From NCBI GenBank assembly GCA_009914755.4, contig CP068257.2, positions 5,984,001 to 6,048,000 of the forward strand: a stretch of 64,000 bases of DNA. Direction: 5' to 3'. The notes under the pieces were generated by a model that saw nothing but the letters and a program-made list of their open reading frames with translations, was not told where the DNA came from and searched no databases. Made by a program: the position numbers and the translations under genes. Positions 39,627-64,000 of the stretch are shown in pieces. Within the stretch, counting starts at the first letter, position 1; every line of letters starts with the position of its first letter. This DNA comes from the human T2T-CHM13v2.0 reference genome, Homo sapiens.

Positions 39627-39689
39627 TTTCTTTTGACTGTATCTCACTCTGTCACCCAGGCTAGTGTGCAGTGGCACAATCTCAGCCCA
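39627..39689 (-). mobile_element. Alu 3'-end fragment (antisense), class B-like
   Basis: 'tttcttttgactgtatctcactctgtcacccaggctagtgtgcagtggcacaatctcagccca'. Confidence 0.7.
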
Positions 39690-39804
39690 TAATTTCACCA
39701 TTCCATTCCATTCCATTCCACTGCACTCCACTCCACTCCACTCAATTCCACTTCACTCCACTCCTATCCATTCCATTCCATTCCAATCCCTTCCATTCCA
39801 CTCC

Positions 39805-39836
39805 TTTATTTCAACAGGGTCTCCATCTGTCACACA
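39805..39836 (-). mobile_element. Alu 3'-end fragment (antisense), class C, truncated at the HSat3/beta-satellite junction
   Basis: 'tttatttcaacagggtctccatctgtcacaca' is followed immediately by 'tgatcacccaggtgataggac', the first beta-satellite monomer. Confidence 0.7.
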
Positions 39837-42800
39837 TGATCACCCAGGTGATAGGACTTTTGTCTAGGCTCTGCCTACGGTGGCATTGTGACATATCTCT
39901 TCACTGATCACCCAGGTGATGTAACTCTTGTGTTGGATCTGCCTAGGGGGAATCATGACATATTTCTGCACTGATCACCCAGGTGTTGGGACTCTTGTCT
40001 AGGCTCTGTATATGGGGGATTTGTGACATATCCCTGCACTGATCACCCAGGTGATGTAACGCTTGACTAGGCTGTGAATTCTGGGGCATAGTGACATCAC
40101 TACATTGATCACTGAGATGACGTAACTCTTGTCCAGGCTCTAGCTATAGAAGGCCCAGTGACATATCTCTGCACTGATCATCTACTTGATGTAACTCTTG
40201 GTTACACATTGCCTGCAGAGGCATTGTGAAATATCTCTTTACTGATCAACCAGGTGATCTAAGTCTTGTCTAGGCTCTGCCTACAGGGGGTTTTGTGGCA
40301 TAACCCTGCACTGATCACCCAGGTGATGGGACTCTTCTCTAGGCTCTGCCTATTGGGGGCATTGTCACATATTTCTGCACTGATCACCCAGGTGATGGAC
40401 TCTTGTCTTGGATCTGCCCATGGGGGCATTGTGACATATCTCTGCACTGATCACCCAGGTGATGTAACTCTAGTCTAAGCTCTGCCTAAAGTGGCATTGT
40501 GACAGATCTCTGTACTGATCACTCAGCTGATGTAACTATTGTCTAGGCTCTGCTTAAAGGGGCCTTGTCACATATGTCTACACTGATCACCCAGGTGATG
40601 TAACTGTTGTCTAGGTTCTGCTTACAGAGGATATTGTAACATATCTCTGCACTGATAACGTAAGTGATGTAATACTTGTGTAGGCTCTGCCTACAGGGGC
40701 ATTTTGACATATCTCTGCACTGTTAACCGAGGTGATGTAATTCTTCTCTAGGCTGTGCCCACAGGGGCGTTGAGACATATCTCTGCACTGATCCCAAGGT
40801 GATCCAACTGTTGTCTGGGCTCTGCCTACTGGGGGCATTGTGACATATCTCTGCACTGATCTCCCACGTGATGTAACTTTTATCTAAGCTCGGGCTACAT
40901 GGCATTGTGACATATTACTGCACTGATCACCCAGGTGATATAACCCTTGTCTAGGCTCTGCCTACAGGGGGCTTGTGACACATCTCTGCACTGATCACCC
41001 AGGTGATGTATCTCTTGTCTAGGATCCGCCTACAGGTTGCTTTGTGACATATCCCTGCAATGATCACCCAGGTGATGTACCACTTGTCAAAGCTCTGACT
41101 ACAAGGGGTTTGCTATGTATCTCTGCACTGATAATATAGGTCATGTATCTCTTGTCTAGGCTCTACCTACAGTGGCATTGTGATATATCTCTGCACTGAT
41201 CACCCAGGTGATGGAATCCTTGTCTAGGCTCTGCCAAAATGGGGCATTGTGATATAACTCTGCACTGATCACCCAGGTGATGCGACTCTTGTCTAGGCTC
41301 TGCCTACAGGAGCATTGTGACATATCTCTGCATTGATCACGCAGGTGATGTAACTCTTGTCTATATCTGCCTACTGGTGGCATTGTGGCATATTTCTGCA
41401 CTGATCACCCAGGTGATGGACTCTTGTCTTGGATCTGCCTATGGGGGCATAATGACATATCTCAGCACTGATCACTCATATGATGTAACGCTTGTCTAAG
41501 CTGCGCCAAAAGGGGAATTGTGAAAGATATCTCCACTGATCACCCAGGTGATGTAACAATTTTCTGGTATTTGTCTACAGGGTGCTTTGTGACATATCTT
41601 TGCACTGATCACCCAAGAGATGTAACACTTGTCTAGGCTCGGCCTACAGGGGCTTTGTGACATATGTCTGTACTGATCACCCAGGTGAAGTAACTCTTGT
41701 CTAGGCTCCACCTACAGGGGGTATTGTGACGTATCTCTGCACTGATCACCCAGGTGATGTAACATTTATCTAGGCTCTTCCTACAGGGGCGTTTTGACAT
41801 AGCTCTGCACAGCTCACCTAGGTTATATAACTCTTGTCCACTCTCTGCCTACAGGGGCATTGTGAAACATCTCTGCACTGATCACCCAGGTGATGCGACT
41901 CTTCTCTATACTCTGCCTAGAAGGGGTTTGTGACATACCTCTGCACTGATAACCCAGGTGATGGAAGTCTTGTCTAGGCTCTGTCTATGGGGGCATTGTG
42001 TCAAATATCTGCACTGTTCACCCAGGTGATGTACCTCTTTTCTAGGCTCTGTCTACAGGGATTTTTGTGACATATCACTGCACTGATCACCTAGGCGATA
42101 TAAGCTTTGTATGGGCTTTGCCTACAGAAGGCTTTGTGACATATCTATGCACTGATCTCTGAGGTGACGCAACTCTTGTCTAGGCACTGCCTACAGGGTA
42201 CATTGGTACATAACTCTGCACTGAGCACCCAGGTGATGGACTCTTGTCTGAGATCTGCCTACAGGGACATTGTGATACATCTCTGAACTGATCAACCAAG
42301 TGATGAAACTCATGTCTAGGCTCTGCCTACAGGGGCTTTGTGACACATCTCTACACTGATCACCCTGGGGAAGGAACTCTTGTCTATGCTCTGCCTACAG
42401 GGGACATTGTGGCATATGTCTGCACTGATAACCCAGGTGATGCAACTCTTCTCAATGCTCTGCCTACATTTGGCATTGTGACATATCTCTGCACTGATCA
42501 CCCATTTGATGTAACTCTTTTCTAGTCTCTGCCTACAGAGGGCGTTGTGACATCACTCTGCACGGATCACACGGGTTATTTAACTCTTGTCTAGGCTCTG
42601 CCTACGTGGGCATTGTGACTTATCTCTGCACTGATCACCCAAGAGATGTGTCACTTGTCTAAGCTCTGTGTAGAGGGACATTGGGACATATCTCTGCCCT
42701 GATCGCTGAGGTGATGTAAAATTTGTCTAGGCTTGCCTACAGTGGGATTTATGACGTATCTCTGCACTGATCACCCAGGTGATGTAACTCTTGTCTAGGC

Positions 42801-43694
42801 TCTGCTTACAGGGAGTATTGTGAGATATCTCTGCACTGATCACACAGGTGATGAAACTCTCGTCTAGGCTCTGCCTACAGGGGCTTTGTGACACATCTCT
42901 GCACTGATCACCCTAGGGAGTGAACTCTTGTCTACGCTCTGCCTACAGGAATCTTTATGACTTATACCTGCACTGATAACCTAGGTGATGTAACACTTGT
43001 CTAGGCTCTGCCTACACGGGAATTCTCACATATCTCTGCACTGATCACCCAGGTGATGTAACTCCTGTCTAGTTTCAACCAACGGGAGCGTTTTGACATA
43101 TCTCTGCCCTGATGACCCAGGTGATGTAACCCTTGTCTAAGCTCTGCCTACAGGGGCATTGTATCAGATCTCTCCAATGCTCACCCAGGTGATGTAACAA
43201 TTGTCTGAGCTTTGCCTACAGGGGGCTTTGTGATATACATTTCCACTGATCAAACAGGTGATGTAACCCTTGTCAAGGTTCTGCTTACAGGGGATTTGTG
43301 ACATAGCTCTGCACTGATCACCCCAGGGAGGAAACACTTGTCTGCACTCTTCCTAAAGGAGGATTTACGACTTATCCCTGCACTGATCACTAGGTGATGT
43401 AACACTTGTCTAGGCTCTGTCTACATGGGAATTTTCACATATCTCTACACTAATCCCCTAAGTGATGTAACCCTTGTCTAGGTTCAGCCTACTGGGGATT
43501 TCTGACATACCTATGCACTGATCACTGAGGTGATGTAAATCATTTCCAGGCTTTTTGTACAGGGGACCTTGTGATATATCTCTGCACTGATCACCCAAAT
43601 GATGCAAATCGTCTCTAAGCTCTGCAGGGAGGGGGCATTGTGACATACTTCTGAACCAATCATCCAGGAGATGTAAGTATACTCCAGGCTTTGA
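39837..43694. repeat. Beta-satellite (Sau3A/BSR 68-69-bp monomer) array 1
   Basis: Monomers of the type 'ctgcactgatcacccaggtgatgtaactcttgtctaggctctgcctacaggggcattgtgacatatct' with one GATC each. Measured spacing of 'ctgatcaccc' is 69, 69 bp (39902, 39971, 40040). Collinear monomer-by-monomer with array 2. Confidence 0.9.
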
Positions 43695-44401
43695 CTTAAG
43701 AGCATCGCAAGGTGTTGGGAGAGCCTCAGCCGGAATTTCACAGACAGACAAGGACAAAGAGAGGCCAGCGGGCTCCCTTGCACATCAGCCAGGGTGCGCA
43801 ATGAGCGCAGGTTTAGCCAGGAGGCTGGCAAAGAGAGCTAGAAGTCTGCGTTCTGCCGCCAGGCGCTCCAAGGTGGTAGCTGGGAGGCTGCAGGGGCACG
43901 GGCGGGCCGACGACGGTGGCTCAGAGGCGCAGAGGAGGTGAGCCGCCGGAGGCGTGTCAGGCCTGGACGCTGCGTGGGCCCAGTGTTTCACGGGACGGGG
44001 GTCTCCACCCTGCCCAGGGGAGGACGCATTTTCCGTGGATGGGGGGTGGGGGTGTGGGGTGTTGGTCAGGCGGGGTTGGGGTGGTGGAAAGGCATGAGAT
44101 CTCTGCCTGGGCTGCTCCCAAAGCCCAGGCGGCTACCCCACAACACGCACTTGCACAGTAGGCGGCCCACCTGCTGGTACCTGGGCTGGCTCTGGGATCC
44201 CCGGGATGCCCAGGAAAGAATGGCTGTTCTCCACTGTGTGGAGCCTCTTACTGGGCCTAGACCTAGAAGGCAGGAATCCCAGGCCGGTCAGCCCGGTTGT
44301 GGGGGCGGGGGAAGACACAACCCTCCATAACCAGCCAGGTGTTCCCTGGGAAAGAGAGGCCACCGCCCTGCCCCGACCCGACCCCGCCCCAACCCCGCGT
44401 C

Positions 44402-45841
<1,440 letters not shown>

Positions 45842-46460
45842 TCATGAATGGCGGTGAACCCTGGGAATGCCCACCCCACCCCAGAAGGGTTCCAGGGTGT
45901 CGAGGCCTGCGGCCTGGGGGTGGTGGGGGGGGAGGGCGTGGTGATGTCGCTGGTGAGGCCAGAGACACGAAGAGGAAGGGGGTGAGGGGGAAGGGGTGAG
46001 GTGGGCGCATTTCACGGGCTGGCTCTCCGGACCTCTCCAAGAATCCCACGGGAAATGGAAGCCAATCTCTGGGCTCCCACGCGTCTTCAGCAGGGAGAAA
46101 CCGGCCTGGGAGGGTGGAGGGGAGTGTAAACCTTAACCCCCGTGGGAGTCTTGAGTGTTCCAGACCCTCTCTCCGTGAAGGAGGCAGTGCCTGTGGCAGT
46201 CGCCGTTGCCAGGACAGTCTCACACACCCAGGCGTGTGGCTCTCGTTAATTTCCATGTATGAGACCAGAGTGAGACCCCAGAGAGAAGGTGCCTCCCCAG
46301 CGTGATGACCTGACGATGGATTCCCATGTGCGGCAACATGGGGAGTCTGCAGTGTGGCCGGTTTGGAAACTGGCAAGGAGAGCAAAGGCACCATTCGGGT
46401 CTTCCACCCTTCCCTGCATGTTTCCGGGTGCCCGCAGAGCTCTGGGAGCAAACAGTCAGC

Positions 46461-49400
46461 ATGACACATCTCTGAACTGATCAACAAAGTGATGTAACTC
46501 TTGTCTAGGCTCTGCCTACAGGGGCTTTGTGACATATCTCTGCACTGATCACCCAGGTGATGAGACTTTTGTCTAGGCTCTGCCTATGGGGGCATTGTGA
46601 CATATCTCTACACTGAACACCCAGGTGATGTAACTCTTGTGTTGGATCTGCCTATGGGGTCATTGTGACATATTTCTGCACTGATCACCCAGGTGACGGG
46701 ACTCTTATCTAGGCTCTGTGTATGGGGGCTTTGTGACATCTCTGCATTGATCACCCAGGTGATGTAACGCTTGACTAGGCTCTGCCTACGGTTCATAGTC
46801 ACATATCACTGCATTGATCACCGAGGTGATGTAACTCTTGTCCATGCTCTGCCTATAGGGGTCCTTGTGACATATCTCTGCACTGATGATCTACGTGATG
46901 TAACTCTTGCTTATGCTCTGCCTGCAGGGGCATTGTGAAATATCTCTGCACTGATCACCCAGGTGATGGGACTCTTCTCTAGGCTCTGCCTAATGGGGGC
47001 ATTGTCACATATTTCTGCACTGATCACCCAGGTGATGGACTCTTGTCTTGGATTTGCCTATGGGTGCATTGTGACATATCTCTGCACTGATCACCCAGTT
47101 GATGTAACTCTGGTCTAAGCTCTGCCTAAAGGGGCATTGTGACAGATCTCTGCACTAATCACTCAGGTGATGTAACTATTGTCTGGGCTCTGTTTAAAGG
47201 GGCCTTGTCACATATCTCAGCACTGACCACCCAGGTGATGTAACTCTTGTCTAGCCTCTGCTTACAGAGGTTATTGTGACATATCTCTGCACTGGTCACT
47301 TAATTGATGTAACAATTGTGTAGGCTCTGCCTACAGAGGCATTTTGACATCTCTCTGCACTGTTAACCGAGGTGATGTAACTCTTGTCTAGGCTGTGCCC
47401 ACAGGAGTATTGAGGCATATCTCTGCACTGATCCCGAGGTGATCCAACTCTTGCCTGGTCTCTGCCTACTGGGGACATTGTGACATATCGCTGCACTGAT
47501 CTGCCAAGTGTGTAACTTTAGTCTAGCCTCTGGCTACACGGCATTGTGACAGATCTCTGCACTGCTGACCCAGGTGATATAACTCTCGTCTGGGCTCTGC
47601 CTACAGGGGGCTTTTGACATATCTCTGCACTGATCTCCCAGGTGATGTAACTCTTTTCTAGGATCTGCCTACAGGGTGCTTTGTGACATATCCCTACAAT
47701 GATCACCCAGGTGAGGTACCACTTGTCAAGGCTCTGCCTACAGGGACATTGCGATGTGTCTCTGCACTGATCACCTAGGTCATGTAACTCTTGTTTAGGC
47801 TCTGCCTACAGTGGCATTGTGACATATCTCAGCACTGATCATTCAAGTGATGTAACTATTGTCTAGGATCTGCCTAACGGGATTTTGTGACATAACTCTG
47901 CACTGATCATCCAGGTGATGGGACTTTTATCTAGGCTCTGCCTAAGGGGGCATTGTGACATATATCTGCACTGATCACACAGGTGACGGGCCCTTGTCTT
48001 AGATCTGTCTATGAGGGCATAGTGACATATCTCTGCACTGATCACTCATGTGATGTAACGGTTTTTAAGCTGCGCCTAAAGGGGAATTGTGACAGATATC
48101 TCCACTGCTCACCCAGGTTATGTAACAATTTTCTGGGATTTTTCTACAGGGGGCTTTGTGACATATCTCTGCACTGATCACCCAGGTGATGTAACTCTTG
48201 TCTAGGCTCCACCTACAGGGATTATTGTGACGTATCTCTGCTCTGATCACCCAGGTGATGTAACATTTATCTAGGCTCTCCCTACAGGGGCGTTTTGACA
48301 TAGCTGTGCACAGATCAACTAAGTTATGTAACTCTTGTTCACTCTCTGCCTACAGGGGGCATTGTGAAATATCTCTGCACTGATCACCCAGGTGATGGGA
48401 CTCTTCTCTATACTCTGCCTACGGGGGATTTGTGACATATCTCTGCACTGATCACCCAGGTAATGGAAGTCTTGTCTAGGCTCTGTCTATCTTGACATTG
48501 TATCAAATATCTGCACTGATCACCCAGGTGATGTAACTCTTTCCTAGGCTCGGTCTACAGTGATTTTTTTGACATATCACTGCACTGATCGCCTAGGTGA
48601 TGTAAGCCTTGTATGGGCTTTGCCTACAGAAGGCTTTGTGACATATCTCTGCACTGATCTCTGAGGTGATGCAACTCTTGTCTAGGCACTGCCTTCAGGG
48701 TACATTGGTACATATCTCTACACTGATCACCCAGGTGATGGACTGTTGTCTTAGATCTGCCTACATGGACATTGTGACCCATCTCTGACCTGATCAACCA
48801 AGTGATGAAACTCTTGTCTAGGCTCTGCGTACAGGGGCTTTGTGACACATCTCTACACTGATCACCCTGGGGAGGAAACTCTTGGCTACGCTCTGCCTAC
48901 AGGAGGCTTTATGCCTTATACCTGCACTGATAACCTAGGTGATGTAACACTTGTCTAGACTCTGCCTTCACCGGAATTCTCACATATCTCTGCACTGATC
49001 ACACAAGTGATGTAACTCCTATCTAGGTTCAGCCTTCAGGAGCGTTTTGACATATCTCTGCACTGATCACCCAGGTGATGTAACCCTTGTCTAAGCTCTG
49101 CCTACAGGGGCATTGTGACAGATCTCTCCACTGCTCACCCAGGTGATGTAACAACTGTCTGGGCTTTGCCTACAGGGGGCTTTGTGATATACATTTCCAC
49201 TGATCAAACAGGTGATGTAACACTTGTCAAGGTTCTGCTTACAGGGGCTTTGTGACATATCTCTGCTCTGATCAACCTAGGGAGGAAACACTTGACTGCA
49301 CTCTGCATAGAGGGGACTTTACGACTTATCACTGCGCTGATTACAAGGTGATGTAACACTTGTCTAGGCTCTGTCTACACGTTAATTTTCATATATCTCT

Positions 49401-49649
49401 ACACTGATCACCTAAGTGATGTAACCCTTGTCTAGGTTCAGCCTTTTGGGGATTTCTGACATACCTATGCACAGATCACCGAGGTGATGTAAATCATTTC
49501 CAGGCTTTTTGTACAGGGGACATTGTGATATATCTCTGCACTGATCACCGAAATGATGCAAATCTTCTCTAGGCTCCGCAGGGAGGGGGCATTGTGACAT
49601 ATTTCTGAACTGATCATCCAGGAGATGTAACTATTCTCCAGGCTTTGAC
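46461..49649. repeat. Beta-satellite array 2 (higher-order block between D4Z4-like cores)
   Basis: Same 68-69-bp monomer family. The array starts 'acacatctctgaactgatcaacaaagtgatgtaactcttgtctagg' exactly as arrays 3 and 4 do. Array 1 positions 40500-41230 align monomer-for-monomer with 47130-47860. Confidence 0.9.
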
Positions 49650-50356
49650 TAAAGAGCGTCGCAAGGTGTTGGGAGAGCCTCAGCTGGAATTTCACCAACG
49701 GACAAGGGCACAGAGAGGTCAGCCGTCTCCCTTGCATGTCAGCCGGGGTGCGCAAAGAGCACAGGTCTAGCCAGGAGCATGGCAAAGAGAGCTAGATGTC
49801 TGTGTTCCGCTGCCAGGCGCTCCATGGTGGCTGCTGAGAGGCTGCAGGGTCACGGGCTTGCTGGCGATGGTGGCGCGGATGTGCAGAGGTGGCGAGCCTT
49901 TGGAGGGGTGTCAGGCCTGGATGCTGCGCGGGCCCGGTGTTTCGCGGGATAGGGGTCTCCACACAGCCCAGGGGAGGACACATATTCCGGGGTTGGGGGG
50001 TGGGTGTGGGGAGGTGGTGGTCAGGTGGGGGTGTGGTGGTGGAAAGGCATGAGAGCTCTGCCCGGGCTGCTCCCACAGCCCAGGCGACTGCCTACAAACA
50101 CGCACGTGCACAGTAGGCAGCCCACCTGCTGGTACCTGGTCCGGCTCTGGAATCCCCGTGATGCCCAGGATAGAATGGCAGTTCTCCGCTGTGTGGAGTC
50201 TCTCACGGGGCCTAGACCTAGAAGGCAGGAATCCCAGGCCGGTCAGCCTGGTGGAGGGGGCGGGGGACTAAACGCCCCTCCATAACCAGACAGGTGTTAA
50301 CCGCGAAAGAGAGGCCACCGCCCTGCCCCTACCCGACCCCGTCTCAACCCTGCGTC

Positions 50357-51769
<1,413 letters not shown>

Positions 51770-52425
51770 GCCCGCAGGCAGGCAGGTTCCACAACTTCAT
51801 GAATGGTGGTGAGCCCTGGGACAGCCCGCCCCACCCCGGAAGGGTCCCAGGACTTCGTGGCCTGCGGCAGGGTGGTGGTGGGGAGGGCGGGGGAGGGCAT
51901 GTGGATGGTGGTGGATGGGTCGGATAGACGAAGAGGAAGGGGGCGAGGGGGAAGTGGTGAAGGGGGCACGTTTCGGGGCCTGGCTCTCTGAACCTCTCCA
52001 GGAATCCGGTGGGAACTGGAAGCCGCTCTCTTGGCTCCCACTTGTCTTCAGCAGGGAGAAACCGGCCTGGGAGTGTTTAGGGGAGTGTTGAACTGAACCT
52101 CCGTGGGAGTCTTGAGTGTTCCAGGCCCTCTCTCCATGAAGGAGTCTGTGCCTGTGGGTGTCGGCGTTGCCGGGACAGTCTCACTGACGCAGGCGTGTGG
52201 CTCTCATTCATTTCCACGTAGGAGACCAGAGTGAGACCCCAGAGAGAAGATGCCTCCCCGGCGTGATGGCCTGACGATGGATTCCCGTGTGGGGCAACAT
52301 GGGGACTCTGCAGTGTGGCCAGTTTGGAAACTGGTAAGGAGAGCGAAGGCACCATGCCGGTCTTCCACACTTCCCTGCATGTTTCCGGGTGCCCGCAGAG
52401 CTCCAGGAGCAAACAGTCAGCATGA

Positions 52426-55400
52426 CACACCTCTGAACTGATCAACAAAGTGATGTAACTCTTGTCTAGGCTCTGCCTACAGGGGCTTTGTGACATATCT
52501 CTGCACTGATCACCCAGGTGATGGAACTTTTGTCTGGGCTCTGCCTATGGGGACATTGTGACATATCTCTACACTGATCACCCAGGTGATGTAACTACTG
52601 TGTTGGATCTGCCTATGGGGACATTGTGACATATTTCTTCACTGATCACCCACGTGATGGGACCCTTGTCTAGGCTCTGTGTATGGGGGCATTGTGACAT
52701 ATCTCTGCACAGATCACCCAGGTGATGTAACGCTTTACTAGCCTCTGCCTACGGGGCATAGTGACATATCACTGCATTGATCACCGAGGTGATATAACTC
52801 TTCTCTAGAATCTGACTACAGAGTGCTTTGTGACATATCCCTGCAATGATCACCCAGGTGATATACCACTTGTCAAGGCTCTGCCTACAGGGGCATTGCG
52901 ATGTATCTCTGCACTGATCACCTAGGTCATGTAACTCTTGTCTAGGCTCTGCCTACAGTGGCATTGTGACATATCTCTGCACTGATCACCCAGGTGATGT
53001 AACTCTTTTCCAGGCTCTGAGTATAGGGGGCCTTGTGACATATCTCTGCACTGATCATCTAGGTAAAGTAACTCTTGTCTACCCTCTGCCCAAAGGGGGC
53101 ATTGTGAAATATCTCTGCACTGATCACACAGGTGAAGGGACTCTTCTCTAGGCTCTGCCTACTGGGGGCATTCTCACATATTTCTGAACTGATCACCCAG
53201 GTGACGGACTCTTGTCTTGGATTTGCCTATGGGGGCATTGTGACATATCTCCGCACTGATCACCCAGGTGTTGTAACTCTGGTCTAATCTCTGACTAAAG
53301 GGGCATTGTGACAGATCTCTGCATTGATCACTCAGGTGATGTAACTATTGTCTAGGCTGTGCTTAAAGGGGCCTTGTCACATATCTCTGCACTGATCACC
53401 CAGGTGATGTAACTGTTGCCTAGGCTCTGCTTACAGGGCGTATTTTGACATATCTCTGCACTGATCACCTAAGTGATGTAACACTTGTGTAGGCTCTTCC
53501 TACAGGGGCATTTTGACATATCTCTGCACTGTTAACCGAGGTAATGTAACTCTTGTCTAGGCTGTGCCCACTGGGGGATTGACATATATCTCTGCACTGA
53601 TCCTGAAGTGATCCAACTCTTGCCTGGTCTCTGCCCACTGGGGACATTGTGACATATCTCTGCACTGATCTCCCAGGAGCTATTGCTTTATTCTAGGCTT
53701 TGGCTACACGGCACTGTCACATATCACTGCACTGATCACCCAGATGATATAACTCTTGTCTAGGCTCTGCCAACAGGGGGCTTTTGACATATCTCTGCAC
53801 TTATCACCCAGGTGATATAACTATACTCTAGGATCTGACTACAGGGTGCTTTGTGACATATCCCTGCAATGATCACCCAGGTGATATACCACTTGTCAAG
53901 GCTCTGCCTACAAGGACATTGCGATGTATCTCTGCACTGATCACCTAGGTCATGTAACTATTGTCTAGGCTCTGCCCACACTTGAATTCTCACATATGTC
54001 TGCACTGATTACCCAGTTGATGTAACTCCTGTCTAGGTTCAGCCTACAGGAGCGTTTTGACATATCTCTGCACTGATCATCCCGGTTTTGGGGCATTTTT
54101 CTAGGCTCTGCCTAAGGGGGCATTGTGACATATCTCTGCACTGATCACCCAGGTGATGTTACTGTTGTATAAGCCCTGCCTACAGGGGAATTTTGAGAGA
54201 TATCGCCACTGATCCCCCAACTGATGTAACTATTGTCTAGGCTTTGCCTACAGGGGGCTTTGTGACATAATTTTGCACTGATCACGCAGGTGATGTAACT
54301 CATCTAAGTTCTGCCTACAGGAGCTTTGTCACATATCTCTGCACTGATCACTTTGGTTATGTAACACTTTTGTAAGCACTGCCTAAAGGGAATTTTCACA
54401 AATCTCTGCACTGATCACCTAGGTGATGTAACTCTTGTCTACCATCTGCCCAAAGGGGGCATTATGAAATATCTCTGCACTGATCACTTTGGTGATGTAA
54501 CACTTTTGTAAGCACTGCCTAAAGGGAATTTTCACAAATCTCTGCACTGATCACCTAGGTGATGTAACTCTTGTCTACTATCTGCCCAAAGGGGGCATAT
54601 GAAATATCTCTGCACTGATCACCCAGTTGATTCAACTCTAGTCTAGGATCTGCCTACAGAGGTGTTTTCACATATCCTTGAAGTGATGACAAACGTGATG
54701 TAACTCATGCCTAGACTTTACCTACAGGGGACATTGTGACATATCTCTGCACTGATCACCCAGGAGATGCAACTCTTCTCTCTGCTCTGCCTACAGGGGA
54801 CATTGTGACGTATCTTTGCACTGATAAACCAGGTGGTGTAACACTGGACGAAGCTCAGCCTAAAGGGGCATTGTGAAAAATCTCTGCACTGATCACTCAG
54901 GTGATGTAACTATTGTCTAGGCTATGCTTAAAGGGGCCTTGTCACATATCTCTGCACTGATCACCCAGGTGATGTAACTCTTGTCTAGGCTCTGCTTACA
55001 GGATGTATTGTGACATATCTCTGCAATGATCACCTAAGTGATGTAACACTTGTGTAGGCTCTGCCTACAGGGACATTTTGACATATCTCTGCAGTGTTAA
55101 CCGAGGTGATGTAACCCTTCTCTAGGTTGTGTCCACAGGGGGATTGAGGCATATCTCTGCACTGATTCCTAGGTGATCCAACACTTGCCTGGTATCTGCC
55201 TACTGGGGACATTGTGATATCTCTCTGCACTGATCTCTCAGGTGTTGTAACTTTAGTCTAGGCTCTGCCTACAGGGCATTGTGACATATCACTGCACTTA
55301 TCACCCAGGTGATATAACTCTTGGTTAGGCTCTGCCTACAGTGGCATTGTGACATATCTCTGCACTGATCATCCAGGTGATGTAACTCTTTTCTAGGATC

Positions 55401-58400
55401 TGCCTACAGGGTGCTTTGTGACATAACCCTGCAATGATCACCCAGGTGATGTACCACTTGTCAAGGCTCTGCCTACAGGGACATTGCTATGTATCTCTGC
55501 ACTGATCACCTAGGTCATGTAACTCTTGTTTAGGCTCTGCCTACAGTGGCATTGTGACATATCTCTACAATGATCATCCAAGTGATGTAACCCTTGTCTA
55601 GGATCTGCCTAAAGGGACTTTGTGACATAACTCTGCACTGATCATCCAGGTGATGGGGCTTTTGTCTAGGCTCTGCCTAAGGGGGCATTGTGACATACTT
55701 CTGCACTGATCACCCAGGTGAGGGAATCTTCTCTTGGATCTGCCTATGGGGGCATTGTGACATAAATCTGCACTGATCACCCAGGGGATGTAACTGTTGT
55801 ATAAGCTCAGCCTACAGGGGAATTGTGAAAGATCTCGCCACTGATCACCCAAGTGATGTAACTATTGTCTAGGCTTTGCCTACAGGGGGTTTTGTGACAT
55901 ACCTTTGCACTGATCACCCAGGAGATGTAACTCATCTAAGTTCTACCTACAGGAGCTTTGTGACATATCTCTGCACTGATCACTTAGGTGATGTAACACT
56001 TTTATAAGCTCTGCCTACAGGGAATTTTGACAAATCCCTGCACGGATCACCTAGGTGATGTAAATCTTGTCTACCCTCTCGCCCAAAGGGGGTATTGTGA
56101 AATACCTCTGCACTGATCACCCAGGTGATTCAACTGTTATCTAGGATCTGCCTACAGGGGGTATTGTGAAATATATCTGCACTGATCAACTAGGTGATGT
56201 AACCCTTATCTATGTGATGCCTACAGGGGCCTTTTCACATATCCCTGACCTGATGACAAAGGTGATGTAACTCTTGCCTAGGCTTTGCCAACAGGGGACA
56301 TTGTGACATATCTCTGCACTGATCACCCAGGTGATGCAACTCTTCTCTATGCTCTGCCTACAGGGGGCATTGTGACATATCTCTGCACTGATCACCCAGG
56401 TGATGTAACTCTTTTCTAGTCTCTGCCTACAGAGGGCGTTGTGACATCACTCTGCACGGATCACCCGGGTTATGTAACCCTTGTCTAGGCTCTGCCCATG
56501 GGGGCATTGTGACTTACCTCTGCACTCATCACCCAGGAGATGTGACTCTTTTCTAAGCTGTGCCTGGAGGGACATTGGGACATATCTCTGCACTGACCGG
56601 TGAGGTGATGTAAAACTTGTCTAGGCTTTGCCTACAGTGGGATTTATGACATATCTCTGCACTGATCACCCAGGTGATGTAACTCTTGTCTTAGCTCTGC
56701 TTACACGGGGTATTGTGAGATATCTCTGCACTGATCACCCAGGTGATGTAACTCTTGTCTAGGCTCTGTCTACAGGGGCATTTTAACATATCACTGCACT
56801 GATCACCGAGATGATGTAACCCTTGTATAGGCTTCGCCGACAGGGGGCATTGAGACATATCTCTGCCCTGATCACCGAGGTGATGCGACTCTTGTCTGGG
56901 ATCTGCTTCCAGGGGGCATTGTGACATATCTCTGCCCTGATCAACCAGGTGATGTAACTCTTGTCTAGGCTCTGCCTACTGGAGACATTGTGACATATCT
57001 CCGCACTTATCACCCAGGTGATATCACTTTTCTCAAGGATATGGCTACACGGACATTGTGACATGTCACTGCACTGATCTCACAGCTGATGTAACTCTTA
57101 TCTAGACTCTGGCTACATGGGGTTTGTGACACATCTCTGCACTGATCACCCATGTGTTGTAACCCTTGTCTAGGCTCTGCCAAAAAGGGGCATTGTGACA
57201 TAACTCTGCACTGATCCCCCAGGTGATGGGACTCTTGTCTAGGCTCTGCCTACATGGGCATTGTGACATATCTCTGCAGTGATCACGCAGGTTATGTAAC
57301 TCTTGTTTATATCTGCCTACTGGCGGCATTGTGACATATTTCTGCACTGATCACCCAGGTGATGGACTCTTGTCTTGGATCTGCCTATGGGCCATAGTGA
57401 CATATCTCTGCACTGATCACTCATGTGGTATAACACTTATGTAAACTGCGCCTAAATGGGAATTGTGACAGATATCTCCAGTGATCACCCAGGTGATGTA
57501 ACAATTTTCTGGGATTTGTCTCCAGGGGGCTTTGTGACATATCTTTGCACTGATCACCCAGGAGATGTAATTCTTGTCTAGGCTCGGCCTACAGGGGCCT
57601 TGTGTCATATTTCTGCACTGATCATCCAGGTGATATAACTCTTGTTTAGGCTCTGCCTACAGGGGATTTTGTCATATTTCTGCACTGATCACCCACGTGA
57701 TGTAACTCTTTTTTAGGCTCTGCCTACAGGGGCTTTGTGATATATCTCTGCACTGATCACCCAGGTGATGTAACTCTTGTCTAGGCTCCACCTACAAGGG
57801 GTATTGTGACGTATCTCTGCACTGATCACTCAGGTGATGTAACTGTTGTCTAGGCTCCACCTACAGGGTTTATTGTGACGTCTCTATGCACTGATCACTC
57901 AGGTGATGTAACGTTTATCCAGGCTCTGCCTACTGGGGCGTTTTGACATAGCTCTGCACAGATCTCCTAGGTTATGTAACTCTTGTCCACTCTCTGCCTA
58001 CAGTGGGCATTGTGAAATATCTCTGCACTGATCACCCAGGTGATGGGACTCTTCTCTATACTCTGCCTAGAGGGGGATTTGTGACATATCTGTGCACTGA
58101 TCACACAGGTGATGGAAGTCTTGTCTAGGCTCTGTCTATGGGGACATTGTGTCAAATATCTGCTCTGATCACCCATGTGATGTAACTCTTGTCTAGGCTC
58201 TGTCTACAGGGATTTTTGTGACATGTCACTGTGCTGATCACCTAGGTGATGTAAGCCTTGTATGGGCGTTGCCTACAGAAGGCTTTGTGACATATCTCTT
58301 CACTGATCTCTGAGGTCATGCAACTCTTGTCTAGGCACTGCCTACAGAGGACATTGGTACATAAACTGCACTGATCACCCAGGTGAGGACTCTTGTCTTA

Positions 58401-59294
58401 GATCTGCCTACATGGACATTGTGACACATCTCTGAACTGATCAACCAAGTGATGAAACTCTTGTCTAGTTTCTGCCTACAGGGGCTTTGTGACACATCTC
58501 TGCACTGATCACCCTGGGGAGGGAACTTTTGTCTACGCTCTGCCTACAGGAGGCTTTATGACTTATGCCTGCACTGATAACCTAGGTGATGTAACACTTG
58601 TCTAGGCTCTGACTACATGGGAATTCTCACATATCTCTGCACTGATCACCCGGGTGATGTAACTCCTGTCTAGGTTCAGCCTACAGGAGCGTTTGGACAT
58701 ATCTCTGCACTGATCACCCAGGTGATGTAACCCTTGTCTAAGCTCTGCCTACAGGGTCATTGTGACAGATCTCTCCACTGCTCACCCAGGTGATGTAACA
58801 ATTGTCCAGGCTTGCCCTACAGGGGCCTTTGTGATATACATTTGCACTGATCAAACAGGTGATGTAACCCTTGTCAAGGTTCTGCTTACAGGGGCTTTGT
58901 GACATATCTCTGCACTGAACACCCCAGGGAGGAAACACTTGTCTACACTCTGCCTATAGGAGGCTTTATGACTTATCCCTTCACTGATCCCTAGGTGATG
59001 TAACACTTGTCTAGGCTCTGTCTACACGGGAATTTTCACATACCTCTACACTGATAACCTAAGTGATGTAACCCTTGTCTAGGTTCAGCCTACTGGGGAT
59101 TTCTGACATACCTATGCACTGATCCCCGAGGTGATGTAAATCATTTCCAGGCTTTTTGTACAGGGGACATTGTGATATATCTCTGCACTGATCACCCAAA
59201 TGATGCAAATCTTCTCTAGGCTCCACAGGAAGGGGGCATTGTGACATATTTCTGAACTGATCATCCAGGAGATGTAACTATTCTCCAGGCTTTG
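52426..59294. repeat. Beta-satellite array 3 (expanded to 6.9 kb; contains a recent ~136-bp tandem duplication at 54343-54478 / 54479-54612)
   Basis: Same monomer family, with start and end blocks matching arrays 1 and 2. The internal part is expanded. The two adjacent ~136-bp segments 'ctgatcactttggttatgtaacacttttgtaagcactgcctaaagggaattttcacaaatctctgcactgatcacctaggtgatgtaactcttgtctac..' are nearly identical. Confidence 0.9.
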
Positions 59295-60000
59295 ACTAAA
59301 GAGCATCGGAAGGTATTGGGAGAGCCTCAGCCGGAATTTCACGGACGGACGAGGGCACAGAGGCCAGCATGCTCCCTTGTACGTCAGCCACAGTGCACAA
59401 TGAGCGCAGGTCTAGCCAGGAGCCCGGCAAAGAGAGCTAGAGGTCTGCGTTCTGCCACCAGGCGCTCCATGGTGGCAGCTGGGAGGCTGCAGGGGCACCA
59501 GAGGGCCAGGGACCGTGGCGCGGAGGTGCAGAGGAGGCGAGCCGCCAGAGGGGTGTCAGGCCCGGACGCTGAGCCGGCCCAGTGTTTCGCGAGACGGGGG
59601 TCTCCACCCAGCCCAGGGGAGGACGCATTTTCCCGGGTTGGTGTGTGGGGATGGGGAGAGTGTGGTCCGGCCGGGTGGGATGGTGGAATGGCATGAGAGC
59701 TCTGCCTGGGCTGCTCCCACAGCCCAGGCGGCTGCCCGCAAACCCACGCATGTGCAGTAGGCAGCCCACCTGCTGGTACCTGGGCCGGCTTTTGATCCCC
59801 GGGATGCCGAGGAAAGAATGGCAGTTCTCCACTGGGTGGAGCGTCTCACCAGGCCTAGACCTAGAAGGCTGGAATCCCATGCCGGTCAGCTCGGTGGAGG
59901 GGTCGAGGGGAAGACGTGCCCCTCCATAGCCAGCCAGGTGTTCCCCGCGAAAGGGAGGCCACCGCCCTGCTCTGACCCGACCCCTTCCCAACCCAGTGAC

Positions 60001-61305
<1,305 letters not shown>

Positions 61306-61401
61306 TCAGAGAGAGTCCGGTAGGCTCCCGTGCACCTCAGCTGGACTGTGCACTGCGGCAAGTGCAGCCAGGAGACCAGCCGGGACAACAAGCCAGCAGT
61401 T

Positions 61402-61410
61402 CTTATAAAG
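61402..61410 (-). promoter_or_regulatory. TATA-like box 'TTTATAAG' upstream of the DUX4L ATG (copy 3)
   Basis: rc of 'cttataaag' in 'gttcttataaaggtctgcaggcaggcagg', about 140 bp upstream of the ATG at 61266. Confidence 0.45.
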
Positions 61411-62065
61411 GTCTGCAGGCAGGCAGGCTCCACCCCCTGATGAATGGCGGTGAGTCCTGGGACAGACCGCCCCACCCCGGAAGGGTCCCAGGGCGTCCAG
61501 GCCTGTGGCCGGGAGGTGGTGGGGTTGGGGGGAGGGCGTGGTGATGGTGTTGGTGGGGCCGGAGAGACGAAGAGGAAGGGGGCGAGGGGAAAGGGGTGAG
61601 GGGGGAGAGTTTCAGGGGCTGGCTCTCCGGACCACTCCAGGAATCCCGCGGGAACTGGAAGCCACTCTCTGGGCTCCCACATGTCTTCAGCAGGGAGAAA
61701 CCGGCCTGGGAGGGTGGAGGGGAGTGTGGAACTGAACCTCCGTGGGAGTCTTGAGTGTTCCAGGCCCTGTCTCCATGAAGTAGTCAGTGCCTGTGTGTGT
61801 CGCCTTTGCCGGGACAGTCTCACAGGCGCAGGCCTGTGACTCTCGTTCATTTCCACGTAGGAGACCAGAGCGAGACCCCAGAGAGAAGACGCCTCCCCGG
61901 CGTGATGGCCTGACGATGGATTCCCGTGCGTGGCATCATGGGGAGTCTGCAGTGTGGCCGGGTTGGAAACTGGCAAGGAGAGCGAAGTCACCATGTCGGT
62001 CTTCTATCCTTCCCTGCATGTTTCCGGGTGCCCGCAGAGCTCCGGGAGCAAACAGTCAGCATGAC

Positions 62066-64000
62066 ACATCTCTGAACTGATCAACAAAGTGATGTAACCC
62101 TTGTCTAGGCTCTGCTACAGGGGCTTTGTGATATATCTCTGCACTGATCACCCAGGTGATGGGACTTTTGTCTAGGCTCTGCCTATGGGGGCATTGTGAC
62201 ATATCTCTACACTGATCACCCAGGTGATGTAACTCTTGTGTTGGATCTGCCTATGGGGACATTGTGACATATTTCTGCACTGATCACCCAGGTGATGGGA
62301 CTCTTGTCTATGCTCTGTGTATGGGGGCTTTGTGACATATCTCTGCACTGATCACCCAGGTTATGTAACGCTTGACTAGGCTCTGCCTATGGGGCATAGT
62401 GACATATCACTGCATTGATCACGAAGGTGATGAAACTCTTGTCCAAGCTCTGCCTATAGGGGGCCTTGTGACATATCTCTGCACTGATCATCTAGGTGAT
62501 GTAACGCTTGCTTACGCTCTGCCTGCAGGGGCATTGTGAAATATCTCTGCACTGATCACCCAGGTGATGGGACTCTTCTCTAGGCTCTGCCTACTGGGGG
62601 CATAGTCACATATTTCTGCACTGATCACCCAGGTGACCGACTCTTGTCTTGGATTTGCCTATGGGGGCATTGTGAAATATCTCTGCACTGATAACCCAGG
62701 AGATGTAACCCTGGTCTAAGCTCTGCCTAAAGGGGCATTGTGAAAGATGTCTGCACTGATCACTCAGGTGATGTAAGTATTGTCTAGGTTCTGCTTAAAG
62801 GGGCCTTGTCACATATCTCTGCAGTGATCACCCAGGTGGTGAAACTCTTGTCTAGGCTCTGCTAACAGGGGCTATTGTGACATATCTCTGCACTGATCAC
62901 CTGAGTGATGTAACACTTGTGTAGGCTCTGCCTACAGGGGCATTTTGACATATCTCGGCACTGTTAACCAAGGTGATGTAACTCTTGTCTAGGCTGTGGC
63001 CACAGGGGGATTGAGACATATCTCTGCACTGATCCCTAGGTGATCCAACTCTTGCCTGGTCTATGCCTACTGCGGACATTGTGACATATCTCTGCACTGA
63101 TCTCCCAGGTGCTGTAACTTTAGTCTAGGCTCTGGCTACACGGCATTGTGACATATCACTGCACTGAGCACCCAGGTGATATAACTCTTTTCTAGGCTCT
63201 GCCTACAGGAGGCTTATGACATATCTCTGCACTGATCATCCAGGTGATATAACTCTTCTCTAGCATCTGCCTACAGGGTGCTTTGTCACATATCCCTGCA
63301 ATGATCACCCTGGGGATATACCAATTGTCCAGGCTCTGCCTACAGGGGCATTGCGATGTATCTCTGCACTGATCACCTAGGTCATGTAACTCTTGTTTAG
63401 GCTCTGCCTACAGTGGCATTGTGACATATCTCTGGACTGATCACCCAGGTGATGTAACTCTTTTCTAGGATCTGCCTACAGTTGGCTTTGTGACATATCC
63501 CTGCAATGATCACCCAGGTGATGTACCACTTGTCAAGGCTCTGCCTACAGGGACATTGCGATGTATCTCTGCACTGATCACCTAGGTCATGTAACCCTTG
63601 TCTAGGCTCTGCCTGCAGTGGCATTGTGACATATCTCTGCACTGATCATCCAAGTGATGTAACACTTGTCTAGGATCTGCCTAAAGTGACTTTGTGACAT
63701 AATGCTGTACTGATCATCCAGGTGATGGGGCTTTTGTCTAGGCTCTGCTTAAGGGGGCATTGTGACATATTTCTGCACTGATCACCCAGGTGATGCAACA
63801 CTTTTCTAGTCTCTGCCTACAGAGGGCTTTGTGACATTACTCTGCATGAACACCCAGGTGATGGGACATTTGTATACGCTCCGCCTATGGGGGCATTGTG
63901 ACATATCTCTACACGGATCACCCAGGTGATGTAACTCTTGTGTTGGATCTGCCTATGGGGGCATTGTGACATATTTCTGCACTGATCACCCAGGTGAAGG
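62066..64000. repeat. Beta-satellite array 4 (start of the next composite unit; runs off the window)
   Basis: Begins 'acacatctctgaactgatcaacaaagtgatgtaacccttgtctagg', identical in layout to the starts of arrays 2 and 3. Confidence 0.9.

What the first reader, a model, noticed from the sequence alone, without database searches (positions are those of the whole stretch)
43560..43830. pLAM-like core-to-beta-satellite junction without a usable poly(A) signal, repeated after every core
On the minus strand, the 3' end of each core reads from a '...gtgaaattccggctgaggctctcccaacaccttgcgatgctctt...' segment into 'agtcaaagcctggagtatacttacatctcctggatgattggttcagaagtatgtcacaatgccccctccctgcagagc', and then into regular beta-satellite. 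From memory, this closely parallels the 4qA pLAM region 'GCAAACCTGGATTAGAGTTACATCTCCTGGATGATTAGTTCAGAGATATATTAAAATGCCCCCTCCC'. At the position of the pathogenic-haplotype ATTAAA poly(A) signal, all three copies here have 'GTCACA'. The equivalent positions are 43560-43700, 49520-49650 and 59170-59295. None has AATAAA or ATTAAA nearby. Any transcript from these DUX4L copies would lack the stabilising polyadenylation signal, which makes them non-permissive. The result also suggests that pLAM is itself the ordinary core-to-beta-satellite junction of this repeat family.
Basis: partly seen in the sequence, partly recalled or inferred. Interest (0 to 1): 0.55.

Follow-up and report, generated by a model that had tools for sequence, protein, structure and literature searches.

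The report
Ancestral pLAM-like D4Z4–beta-satellite junction
Each of three decayed DUX4-like repeat cores in this human satellite block ends in a true homologue of the 4qA "pLAM" region that carries the ordinary beta-satellite letters GTCACA where the disease allele has the ATTAAA poly(A) signal; this is real, but the arrangement is already published.

Summary
A published 220-nt 4qA pLAM/DUX4 exon 3 sequence aligns end to end, on the minus strand, to exactly three places: 43812-43592, 49766-49551 and 59411-59193. Identity is 81-83% and E is 1e-57 to 1e-59. ATTAAA aligns to GTCACA in all three, 756-759 nt after the DUX4L stop (766 bp in 4qA). No AATAAA or ATTAAA lies within 2.1 kb downstream.

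Three refinements:
- pLAM from about position 116 onward, PAS included, is itself the first 68-bp beta-satellite monomer. GTCACA is the beta-satellite consensus there (109 of 234 monomers), so these copies show the ancestral state and ATTAAA is derived.
- All three DUX4L ORFs are dead: 7 premature stops, 4 premature stops, and frameshifts. "Non-permissive" is therefore true but moot.
- Composition predicts only about 0.17 canonical hexamers per 1.2 kb, so their absence is not a special depletion.

The idea that pLAM is the ordinary core-to-beta-satellite junction is supported: 119 of 120 contigs carrying this monomer show the same junction. It is also already published (Butterfield 2023, 319 D4Z4-pLAM copies in LSAU-BSAT composites; EJHG 2026 survey). 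Low interest.

The parts
43692..46460 (-). LSau / D4Z4-like core 1, about 2.77 kb of non-beta-satellite DNA between beta-satellite blocks
   Evidence: Gap of 2770 nt in the beta-satellite monomer hits. Three-copy repeat families with spacings of 5955 and 9644. GC 66%.
49646..52422 (-). LSau / D4Z4-like core 2
   Evidence: Gap of 2778 nt in the monomer hits. Repeat families.
59293..62060 (-). LSau / D4Z4-like core 3
   Evidence: Gap of 2769 nt in the monomer hits. Repeat families.
44402..45670 (-). DUX4L pseudogene 1: collinear with all 424 aa of DUX4 in one frame (79.7% identity), with 7 premature stop codons
   Evidence: tblastn (the DUX4 query was recalled from memory). Direct translation.
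50357..51625 (-). DUX4L pseudogene 2: collinear with DUX4 (81.1%), 4 premature stops, two homeodomains recognisable
   Evidence: Pfam PF00046, 2 stretches, E 2e-27.
60001..61266 (-). DUX4L pseudogene 3: split over three reading frames (at least two frameshifts); C-terminal ...LEEL and stop retained
   Evidence: tblastn HSPs in frames -2, -1 and -3. ORF list. Sequence.
43592..43812 (-). Homologue of 4qA DUX4 exon 3 / pLAM, copy 1 (81.4% over 220 nt); acceptor dinucleotide AA instead of AG
49551..49766 (-). Homologue of 4qA DUX4 exon 3 / pLAM, copy 2 (82.9%); acceptor AG kept
59193..59411 (-). Homologue of 4qA DUX4 exon 3 / pLAM, copy 3 (82.4%); acceptor AG kept
43629..43696 (-). First beta-satellite monomer after core 1, equivalent to the PAS-bearing part of pLAM (pLAM 116-183)
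   Evidence: nhmmer with the 4qA monomer: 34.3 bits, rank 3 of 234. Boundary.
43639..43644 (-). GTCACA at the position of the 4qA ATTAAA poly(A) signal, 758 nt after the stop
49593..49598 (-). GTCACA at the PAS position, copy 2, 759 nt after the stop
59240..59245 (-). GTCACA at the PAS position, copy 3, 756 nt after the stop
44171..44261 (-). Homologue of DUX4 exon 2, ending ...GGTACCAGCAG|GT (KpnI site, GT donor kept). The same element lies at about 50126-50216 and 59770-59860.
   Evidence: Sequence. Donor check. Published exon 2 sequence in PMC2965761 Table 4. Start coordinates for cores 1 and 2 were inferred from the offset to core 3.
45674..45780 (-). DUX4L 5'UTR segment paralogous to the first ~100 nt of the exon 3 homologue (direct repeat within the core)
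   Evidence: Self-BLAST: 79.6% over 108 nt, E 8e-22. Alignment. pLAM 1-80 hits 45767-45689 at 82.5%.
39837..64000 (-). [quoted passage not shown]
   Evidence: TRF period 68 with higher-order periods 341 and 476. nhmmer. Repeat families.

Best explanation
**What it is.** This is the 3' end of the common, diverged "D4Z4-pLAM" unit of the human LSau/beta-satellite composite repeat (annotated LSAU-BSAT or LSAU-BETA). It is the kind found on acrocentric short arms and at 1q12.

**Unit structure (minus strand).** Each ~2.77-kb core carries:
- a DUX4-like ORF;
- homologues of DUX4 exon 2 and intron 2;
- the ~115-nt unique part of exon 3;
- then, directly, beta-satellite.

**Origin of the PAS.** The rest of "pLAM", including the poly(A)-signal position, is the first 68-bp beta-satellite monomer. 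That monomer here keeps the beta-satellite consensus GTCACA. The 4qA ATTAAA is therefore a derived state, three substitutions away. The single-step intermediates ATCACA (seen in other junction copies) and ATCAAA (10qA and non-permissive 4qA) both exist.

**Likely consequence (inferred, not shown).**
- RNA polymerase II transcripts reading out of these cores would not be cleaved and polyadenylated at the exon 3 site.
- The ORFs are in any case pseudogenes.
- Published methylation of such copies is 81-94%.
- These are therefore most likely silent heterochromatic relics with no coding function.
For: - **Homology.** The 220-nt collinear alignment to published 4qA sequence runs at 81-83% with one 1-nt gap (two gaps in the core 3 alignment).
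- **Geometry.** The hexamer lies 756-759 nt after the stop, against 766 bp in 4qA. Exon 2 and its GT donor are conserved in 3 of 3 copies, and the exon 3 AG acceptor in 2 of 3.
- **Beta-satellite nature of the PAS region.** pLAM 116-220 matches about 160 beta-satellite sites at 73-84%. The 4qA monomer retrieves 234 monomers, all on the minus strand.
- **Hexamer census.** The aligned hexamer is GTCACA in 109 of 234 monomers, GTCAAA in 16 and ATCACA in 12. None is ATTAAA or AATAAA.
- **Family-wide junction.**
  - A degenerate pattern that allowed ATTAAA gave 122 hits in human-derived contigs: 119 GTCACA and 3 ATCACA.
  - 119 of 120 have the same core end upstream, and 114 keep the AG acceptor.
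  - Median identity to 4qA is 86.9%.
- **Pseudogene state.**
- **Literature.**
  - pLAM guide RNAs cut LSAU-BSAT composites.
  - T2T-CHM13 holds 319 copies of a 5'-truncated ~3.1-kb D4Z4-pLAM unit.
  - The ancestral D4Z4-pLAM configuration is stated, and methylation is 81-94%.
  - The distal part of pLAM is made of 68-bp Sau3A-like repeats.
  - ATCAAA is the non-functional variant.
Against: - No transcript, 3'-end or methylation data exist for this window, so "not polyadenylated" and "silent" are inferences.
- Weak hexamer variants occur shortly after the site: AAAAAG at +844 to +847 in all three copies, and CATAAA at +1031 in core 3.
- An AATAAA lies 2.1 kb downstream of core 3.
- Non-permissive 10q alleles are known to use a distal PAS in testis.
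- The beta-satellite part alone is only marginally more similar to pLAM than generic monomers are. Orthology therefore rests on the contiguous unique part and the shared junction.
- The window copies (81-83%) are more diverged than the roughly 87-90% typical of the family.
- The direction of change (GTCACA ancestral) is inferred from the consensus, not from an outgroup.
Confidence: 0.9

Rival explanations
1. The resemblance to pLAM is only generic beta-satellite similarity. On this view any monomer would look like pLAM and there is no specific homology of the junction.
For: pLAM 116-220 matches about 160 other beta-satellite sites at 73-84% identity. The best non-junction monomer scores 33.4 bits against 34.3-36.7 for the junction monomers. 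GTCACA is the satellite consensus.
Against: - The non-satellite 115 nt of exon 3 align at 79-82% immediately upstream, contiguously and in the same phase, only at the three junctions.
- The distance from the stop codon matches 4qA.
- The junction monomers rank 1-3 of 234.
- The junction-specific monomer variant is preceded by the same core end in 119 of 120 contigs.
Confidence: 0.03
2. The copies are not dead ends. Transcripts from these cores are polyadenylated at a non-canonical or distal signal, for example the AAAAAG about 90 nt downstream, the AATAAA 2.1 kb downstream of core 3, or a germline-type distal site. They would give stable non-coding or truncated-protein RNAs.
For: - Weak variants are present at +844 to +847 in all three copies, and an AATAAA lies at 57874.
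- A U/GU-rich stretch (TTTGCATCATTTGGGTG) is retained downstream of the site.
- Chromosome 10 DUX4 uses an exon 7 PAS 6.5 kb distal in testis.
- The EJHG 2026 survey proposes a few D4Z4-like loci with coding potential.
Against: - The ORFs here carry 4-7 stops or frameshifts.
- Divergent D4Z4 copies are reported to be 81-94% methylated in blood DNA.
- AAAAAG is a very weak signal (general knowledge).
- There is no expression evidence for this window.
Confidence: 0.07
3. The window is a 4q35 or 10q26 subtelomere, so the three junctions would be variant alleles of the real pLAM rather than paralogues.
For: It has the same element order (DUX4 ORF, exon 2, exon 3, beta-satellite) as 4qA and 10qA.
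Against: - Identity to 4qA is only 81-83%, whereas 4qA and 10q are more than 98% identical.
- The cores are separated by 3-7 kb of beta-satellite instead of forming a head-to-tail 3.3-kb array.
- The cores are only about 85% identical to each other.
- The block abuts about 40 kb of (ATTCC)n satellite.
- The ORFs are pseudogenes.
Confidence: 0.01

Closest known systems
4qA pLAM region (DUX4 intron 2 / exon 3 with the ATTAAA poly(A) signal, followed by beta-satellite)
   Same: - Same order and spacing: DUX4 stop, exon 2, KpnI/GT donor, ~365-nt intron, AG acceptor, ~115 nt unique exon 3, then the first 68-bp beta-satellite monomer carrying the PAS position.
- 81-83% identity over 220 nt.
- The hexamer lies 756-759 nt after the stop, against 766.
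   Different: - GTCACA instead of ATTAAA.
- Upstream ORF dead.
- Present after every interspersed core rather than once at the end of a tandem 3.3-kb array.
- Not subtelomeric (it lies next to HSat-type (ATTCC)n).
10qA / non-permissive 4qA pLAM (ATCAAA)
   Same: It also lacks a functional hexamer at the same position. ATCAAA is a one-step neighbour of both ATTAAA and ATCACA.
   Different: 10qA is more than 98% identical to 4qA, with intact DUX4 ORFs. The copies here are about 82% identical and carry the full satellite-consensus hexamer.
LSAU-BSAT (LSAU-BETA) composite repeats: the 5'-truncated ~3.1-kb D4Z4-pLAM unit (319 copies in T2T-CHM13; Butterfield et al. 2023, PMC10620044; Hoyt et al.)
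   Same: - Diverged D4Z4 with a DUX4-like ORF.
- pLAM attached at its 3' end.
- Interspersed with beta-satellite blocks.
- Intra-array identity of 80-95%. Here the cores are about 85% alike, and each unit is 2.77 kb plus the satellite part of pLAM.
   Different: Nothing essential. The copies here are somewhat more diverged from 4qA (81-83% in the pLAM part) than the roughly 90% quoted. Chromosome assignment could not be made with these tools.
Beta-satellite (Sau3A 68-bp family)
   Same: The PAS-bearing part of pLAM and its homologues here are beta-satellite monomers. Identity of 4qA to the window consensus is 51 of 68, and the period is 68.
   Different: The junction monomer is a distinct variant (TTACATCTCCTGGATGAT..GTTCAGA). 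In this window it occurs only at the three junctions.

Membership tests
LSAU-BSAT composite / divergent D4Z4-pLAM unit | GC-rich LSau/D4Z4-like core containing a double-homeobox (DUX4-like) reading frame | tested here: met
   tblastn covers DUX4 residues 1-424 at 80-81% identity in cores 1 and 2, and is fragmented in core 3. Pfam Homeodomain, 2 stretches, E 2e-27. GC 64-67%.
LSAU-BSAT composite / divergent D4Z4-pLAM unit | Cores interspersed with blocks of 68-bp beta-satellite | tested here: met
   TRF period 68. 234 monomers surround three 2.77-kb gaps.
LSAU-BSAT composite / divergent D4Z4-pLAM unit | pLAM (DUX4 exon 3) sequence attached to the 3' end of the D4Z4-like part | tested here: met
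   Full-length collinear alignment of the published 220-nt pLAM at all three cores. Same junction in 119 of 120 contigs.
LSAU-BSAT composite / divergent D4Z4-pLAM unit | [quoted passage not shown] | tested here: inconclusive
   The size fits: a 2.77-kb core plus about 0.1-0.3 kb of satellite-derived pLAM. No 4q D4Z4 reference sequence was available to show which 0.9 kb is missing.
LSAU-BSAT composite / divergent D4Z4-pLAM unit | Location on acrocentric short arms, 1q12 or another pericentromeric beta-satellite block | not testable with these tools
   No human reference could be searched. The adjacent ~40 kb of (ATTCC)n satellite is compatible with such a location.
FSHD-permissive 4qA pLAM | ATTAAA poly(A) signal in exon 3 | tested here: not met
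   GTCACA in all three copies.
FSHD-permissive 4qA pLAM | Intact full-length DUX4 ORF in the unit immediately upstream | tested here: not met
   7 premature stops, 4 premature stops, and frameshifts.
FSHD-permissive 4qA pLAM | Sits once, distal to a head-to-tail 3.3-kb D4Z4 array at a subtelomere; more than 98% identity among 4qA and 10qA | tested here: not met
   It recurs after every interspersed core at spacings of 5955 and 9644 nt, with 81-83% identity.
Beta-satellite (Sau3A family) | Tandem 67-69-bp monomers with a Sau3A (GATC) site | tested here: met
   The TRF consensus of 68 nt begins TGATCA. The monomer alignment consensus contains GTGATCAGTGCAGAG.

The most novel reading that the evidence does not exclude
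DUX4 exon 3 may be a two-part chimera whose origin can be read from these diverged copies.

- **Unique ~115-135 nt.** These look like a truncated second copy of the DUX4 5'UTR plus the first ~9 codons, with the ATG removed by a 13-nt deletion.
- **PAS-bearing remainder.** This is the first beta-satellite monomer.
- **Stepwise origin.** The disease-permissive ATTAAA would have arisen from the satellite consensus by three single steps, GTCACA to ATCACA to ATCAAA to ATTAAA. Every intermediate is still observable in extant junction copies.

The pLAM-junction part is published. I did not find the 5'UTR paralogy or the explicit stepwise path stated in the papers I read, but I could not search the older subscription literature.
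Probability: 0.25. Interest if true: 0.35.

Novelty: already known. Interest (0 to 1): 0.15.

Why it matters
**Relevance.** The 4qA poly(A) signal decides whether a contracted D4Z4 array causes facioscapulohumeral dystrophy.

**What these copies show.**
- The whole pLAM cassette is a standard part of a dispersed repeat family.
- The signal sits in a satellite monomer whose default letters are GTCACA.

**Practical consequence (already noted in the literature).** Exon 3 and pLAM primers, guide RNAs and antisense reagents have hundreds of near-targets in LSAU-BSAT arrays. Surveys that use an 85% identity cut-off will under-count exon 3 homologues such as these, which are 81-83% identical.

**Limits.** For this window it adds no new biology. 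The copies are pseudogenes in satellite heterochromatin.

Tried and rejected
- **Recovering a real 4qA/10qA locus.**
It returned only acrocentric-type copies.
  - The exact 4qA string found nothing in viral contigs.
  - The bacterial genome collection gave one 247-nt contaminant contig.
  - The 4qA reference therefore had to be assembled from sequences printed in papers. 10qA and 4qB could be compared only through what papers state (ATCAAA; no pLAM or satellite in 4qB), not aligned.
- **Protein search.** The search with the core 3 C-terminal ORF returned mostly short, unnamed human-contaminant fragments. It was not pursued towards genomic context.
- **Rfam.** A scan of 39-64 kb found nothing, including no microRNA such as the MIR8078 mentioned for LSAU composites.
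- **Depletion of PAS hexamers.** I considered that the absence of PAS hexamers might be a selected depletion. I rejected this: a first-order Markov expectation is 0.09 plus 0.08 per 1.2 kb, and observed counts over 24 kb (2 and 0) match expectation (1.9 and 1.6).
- **Ancestral 1.95-kb tandem unit.** I considered that the internal direct repeat reflects such a unit. Self-BLAST shows no further paralogy outside the ~110-150-nt segment, so this is not supported.
- **Lemmers 2010b.** This paper, cited for the ancestral configuration, is not in the searchable library.
Full report
**Context**

The window is human satellite DNA. Positions 1-39.8 kb are (ATTCC)n-type satellite in two compositional blocks, GC 38% up to about 30 kb and 47% after that.

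From 39,837 to the end there is 68-bp beta-satellite. It contains three GC-rich cores of about 2.77 kb at 43,692-46,460, 49,646-52,422 and 59,293-62,060. The cores and all 234 detected satellite monomers share one orientation, the minus strand. The cores are about 82-88% identical to each other.

**Checking the observation**

It recurs after each core, and the three junctions are 95% identical column by column.

Four sources agree:
- Primer 183.
- PMO-PAS.
- Three donor oligonucleotides in PMC7822190.
- A 200-nt pLAM BLAST query in the KaryoScope preprint.

BLAST of the 220 nt against the window gives three full-length minus-strand hits:

| Window position | Identity | E-value |
|---|---|---|
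| 49766-49551 | 82.9% | 1e-59 |
| 59411-59193 | 82.4% | 4e-59 |
| 43812-43592 | 81.4% | 6e-57 |

In global alignments with one or two small gaps, ATTAAA (pLAM 168-173) lies over GTCACA in all three copies. The hexamer is 758, 759 and 756 nt after the DUX4L stop codons. The 4qA signal is reported 766 bp after the stop.

On the minus strand there is no AATAAA or ATTAAA within 3 kb downstream of stops 1 and 2. The nearest to stop 3 is an AATAAA at +2127.

**What the element is**

The alignment falls into two parts.

- **pLAM 1-115.** This part matches only the three junctions, plus three weaker internal sites discussed below.
- **pLAM 116-220.** This part also matches about 160 beta-satellite positions at 73-84% identity.

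I used the 68 nt that carry the PAS as an nhmmer query. It retrieved 234 monomers. The three junction monomers rank first (36.7, 36.1 and 34.3 bits), and ordinary monomers follow closely at 33.4 bits and below.

In a MAFFT alignment of all the monomers, the hexamer under ATTAAA has this distribution:

| Hexamer | Monomers (of 234) |
|---|---|
| GTCACA | 109 |
| GTCAAA | 16 |
| TTCACA | 14 |
| ATCACA | 12 |
| ATTAAA or AATAAA | 0 |

The window consensus there reads GAGATATGTCACAATGCCCCCT.

So the PAS-bearing part of pLAM is the first beta-satellite monomer after the core, and the copies here carry the satellite's default letters. The 4qA signal is three substitutions away. The 10qA and non-permissive 4qA variant ATCAAA is two away.

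**Is this junction typical of the family?**

I scanned metagenome contigs, which contain much human contamination, with a degenerate pattern that would accept ATTAAA or ATCAAA.
- Of the 122 matches (including one from the bacterial genome scan), 119 read GTCACA and 3 read ATCACA.
- Of 120 matches with enough upstream sequence, 119 have the same LSau core end in front. 114 show the AG acceptor before the exon 3 homologue.
- The 118 junctions spanning the full 220 nt (56 distinct sequences) are 76.9-87.8% identical to 4qA, with a median of 86.9%.

The window copies therefore sit at the diverged end of a large and uniform family. These contigs are not independent samples of the genome, because many must be the same loci from different people.

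**State of the upstream genes**

- **Cores 1 and 2.** Both align to all 424 residues of DUX4 in a single frame at 80-81% identity. The tblastn query was recalled from memory, but the stops are read directly from the DNA. Core 1 has 7 premature stops and core 2 has 4. Two homeodomains are still recognisable.
- **Core 3.** It is split over three frames.
- **Splice signals.**
  - The exon 2 homologue and its GT donor after GGTACCAGCAG are kept in all three copies.
  - The exon 3 acceptor is AG in cores 2 and 3 but AA in core 1.
  - The exon 2/3 junction is inferred from the widely used primer CCCAGGTACCAGCAG|ACC and from the start of the published pLAM query.

**Mechanism**

*Shown:* the cassette is homologous to the DUX4 3' end, and it lacks the only hexamer that makes the 4qA site functional.

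*Inferred:* transcripts from these cores would not be cleaved and polyadenylated at that site.

This inference is reasonable, because a single change (ATTAAA to ATCAAA) is described as enough to inactivate the site. It has little consequence here, for three reasons:
- The ORFs are dead.
- Such divergent copies are reported to be 81-94% methylated.
- The absence of canonical hexamers is not a special property. A first-order Markov model predicts 0.09 plus 0.08 occurrences per 1.2 kb, and the 24-kb region holds 2 and 0 against 1.9 and 1.6 expected.

A residual alternative is use of weak or distal signals. Candidates are AAAAAG at +844 to +847 and the AATAAA at 57874. Chromosome 10 alleles do use a distal site in testis.

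**Comparison with what is known**

- pLAM has been described since its first definition as a truncated D4Z4 unit followed by 68-bp Sau3A-like repeats.
- Beta-satellite is known to adjoin LSau/D4Z4-like repeats on the acrocentric chromosomes and on chromosomes 1, 3, 4, 9, 10 and Y.
- Hoyt et al. annotated the LSAU-BETA composite in T2T-CHM13.
- Butterfield et al. 2023 reported four relevant results:
  - pLAM guide RNAs cut LSAU-BSAT composites.
  - They counted 319 copies of a 5'-truncated ~3.1-kb D4Z4-pLAM unit.
  - Only two pLAM sequences were unlinked to D4Z4.
  - They concluded, citing Lemmers 2010b, that D4Z4-pLAM is the ancestral configuration.
- A 2026 survey tabulated exon 2, exon 3 and poly(A) status for every D4Z4-like locus, with almost no poly(A) signals outside 4q.

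One point of detail differs. That 2026 survey, which used an 85% similarity threshold, scores exon 3 as present in only a small minority of units. Here 3 of 3 units have a collinear exon 3 homologue at 81-83% identity. The low counts probably reflect the threshold.

**Side observation**

Within each core, the last ~135 nt before the satellite (the unique part of the exon 3 homologue) are paralogous to the segment holding the DUX4L 5'UTR, ATG and first codons.
- Self-BLAST gives 79.6% over 108 nt, E 8e-22, in core 1, and 72.8% over 114 nt, E 2e-10, in core 3.
- The alignment shows a 13-nt gap that removes the ATG. Similarity then resumes over CTCCCnACACCTTCnGA.
- Published 4qA pLAM 1-80 matches these 5'UTR sites as well as it matches the junctions: 82.5% at 45767-45689.

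I did not find this stated in the papers I read, and I could not test it on 4q itself.

**Verdict**

The element is an ordinary member of a described repeat family, so novelty is low.

Noticed in passing
window 45674-45780 vs 43718-43825 (core 1); 61270-61380 vs 59319-59428 (core 3); 51640-51722 (core 2): Direct repeat inside every core. The unique part of the exon 3 homologue is paralogous to the DUX4L 5'UTR plus ATG plus first ~9 codons, with a 13-nt deletion that removes the ATG in the 3' copy. Published 4qA pLAM 1-80 matches the 5'UTR copies at 74-82.5%. This suggests DUX4 exon 3 began as a truncated second copy of the DUX4 5' end.
   Followed up: partly
window 43813-43814 (minus strand, just 5' of 43812): Core 1 has AA where cores 2 and 3, and 114 related contigs, have the AG splice acceptor of DUX4 exon 3.
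   Followed up: yes
window 1-39836: About 40 kb of (ATTCC)n-type satellite (HSat2/3-like) lies on the plus strand. Composition steps near 30 kb from GC 38% to 47%, with more CCACT-type units after the step. Short Alu-like fragments (e.g. 39630-39690, 39810-39835) sit at and near the boundary with beta-satellite.
   Followed up: no
window 39837-41000 and the rest of the beta-satellite: The beta-satellite shows higher-order periods of 341 nt (5 monomers) and 476 nt (7 monomers) besides the 68-nt unit. Repeat families recur at spacings of 68, 137, 205, 273 and 340.
   Followed up: no
loci L001-L121; proteins P0014, P0030: Human D4Z4-like/beta-satellite DNA is a frequent contaminant of public metagenome and bacterial assemblies. 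More than 120 contigs carry this junction. One is labelled Streptomyces hilarionis (L121). A DUX4-like fragment is annotated as a Helicobacter pylori hypothetical protein, Kyoto166A_1130.
   Followed up: partly
window 57874 and 53692 (minus strand): These are the only two AATAAA hexamers on the minus strand of the whole 24-kb beta-satellite/LSau block. Both lie inside satellite monomers. There is no ATTAAA on either strand.
   Followed up: yes
literature vs window 43592-43812, 49551-49766, 59193-59411: The EJHG 2026 T2T survey scores DUX4 exon 3 as present in only a few D4Z4-like units per array, using an 85% threshold. Butterfield 2023 counts 319 D4Z4-pLAM units. The 81-83% identity of the copies here suggests the discrepancy is due to the threshold.
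   Followed up: partly
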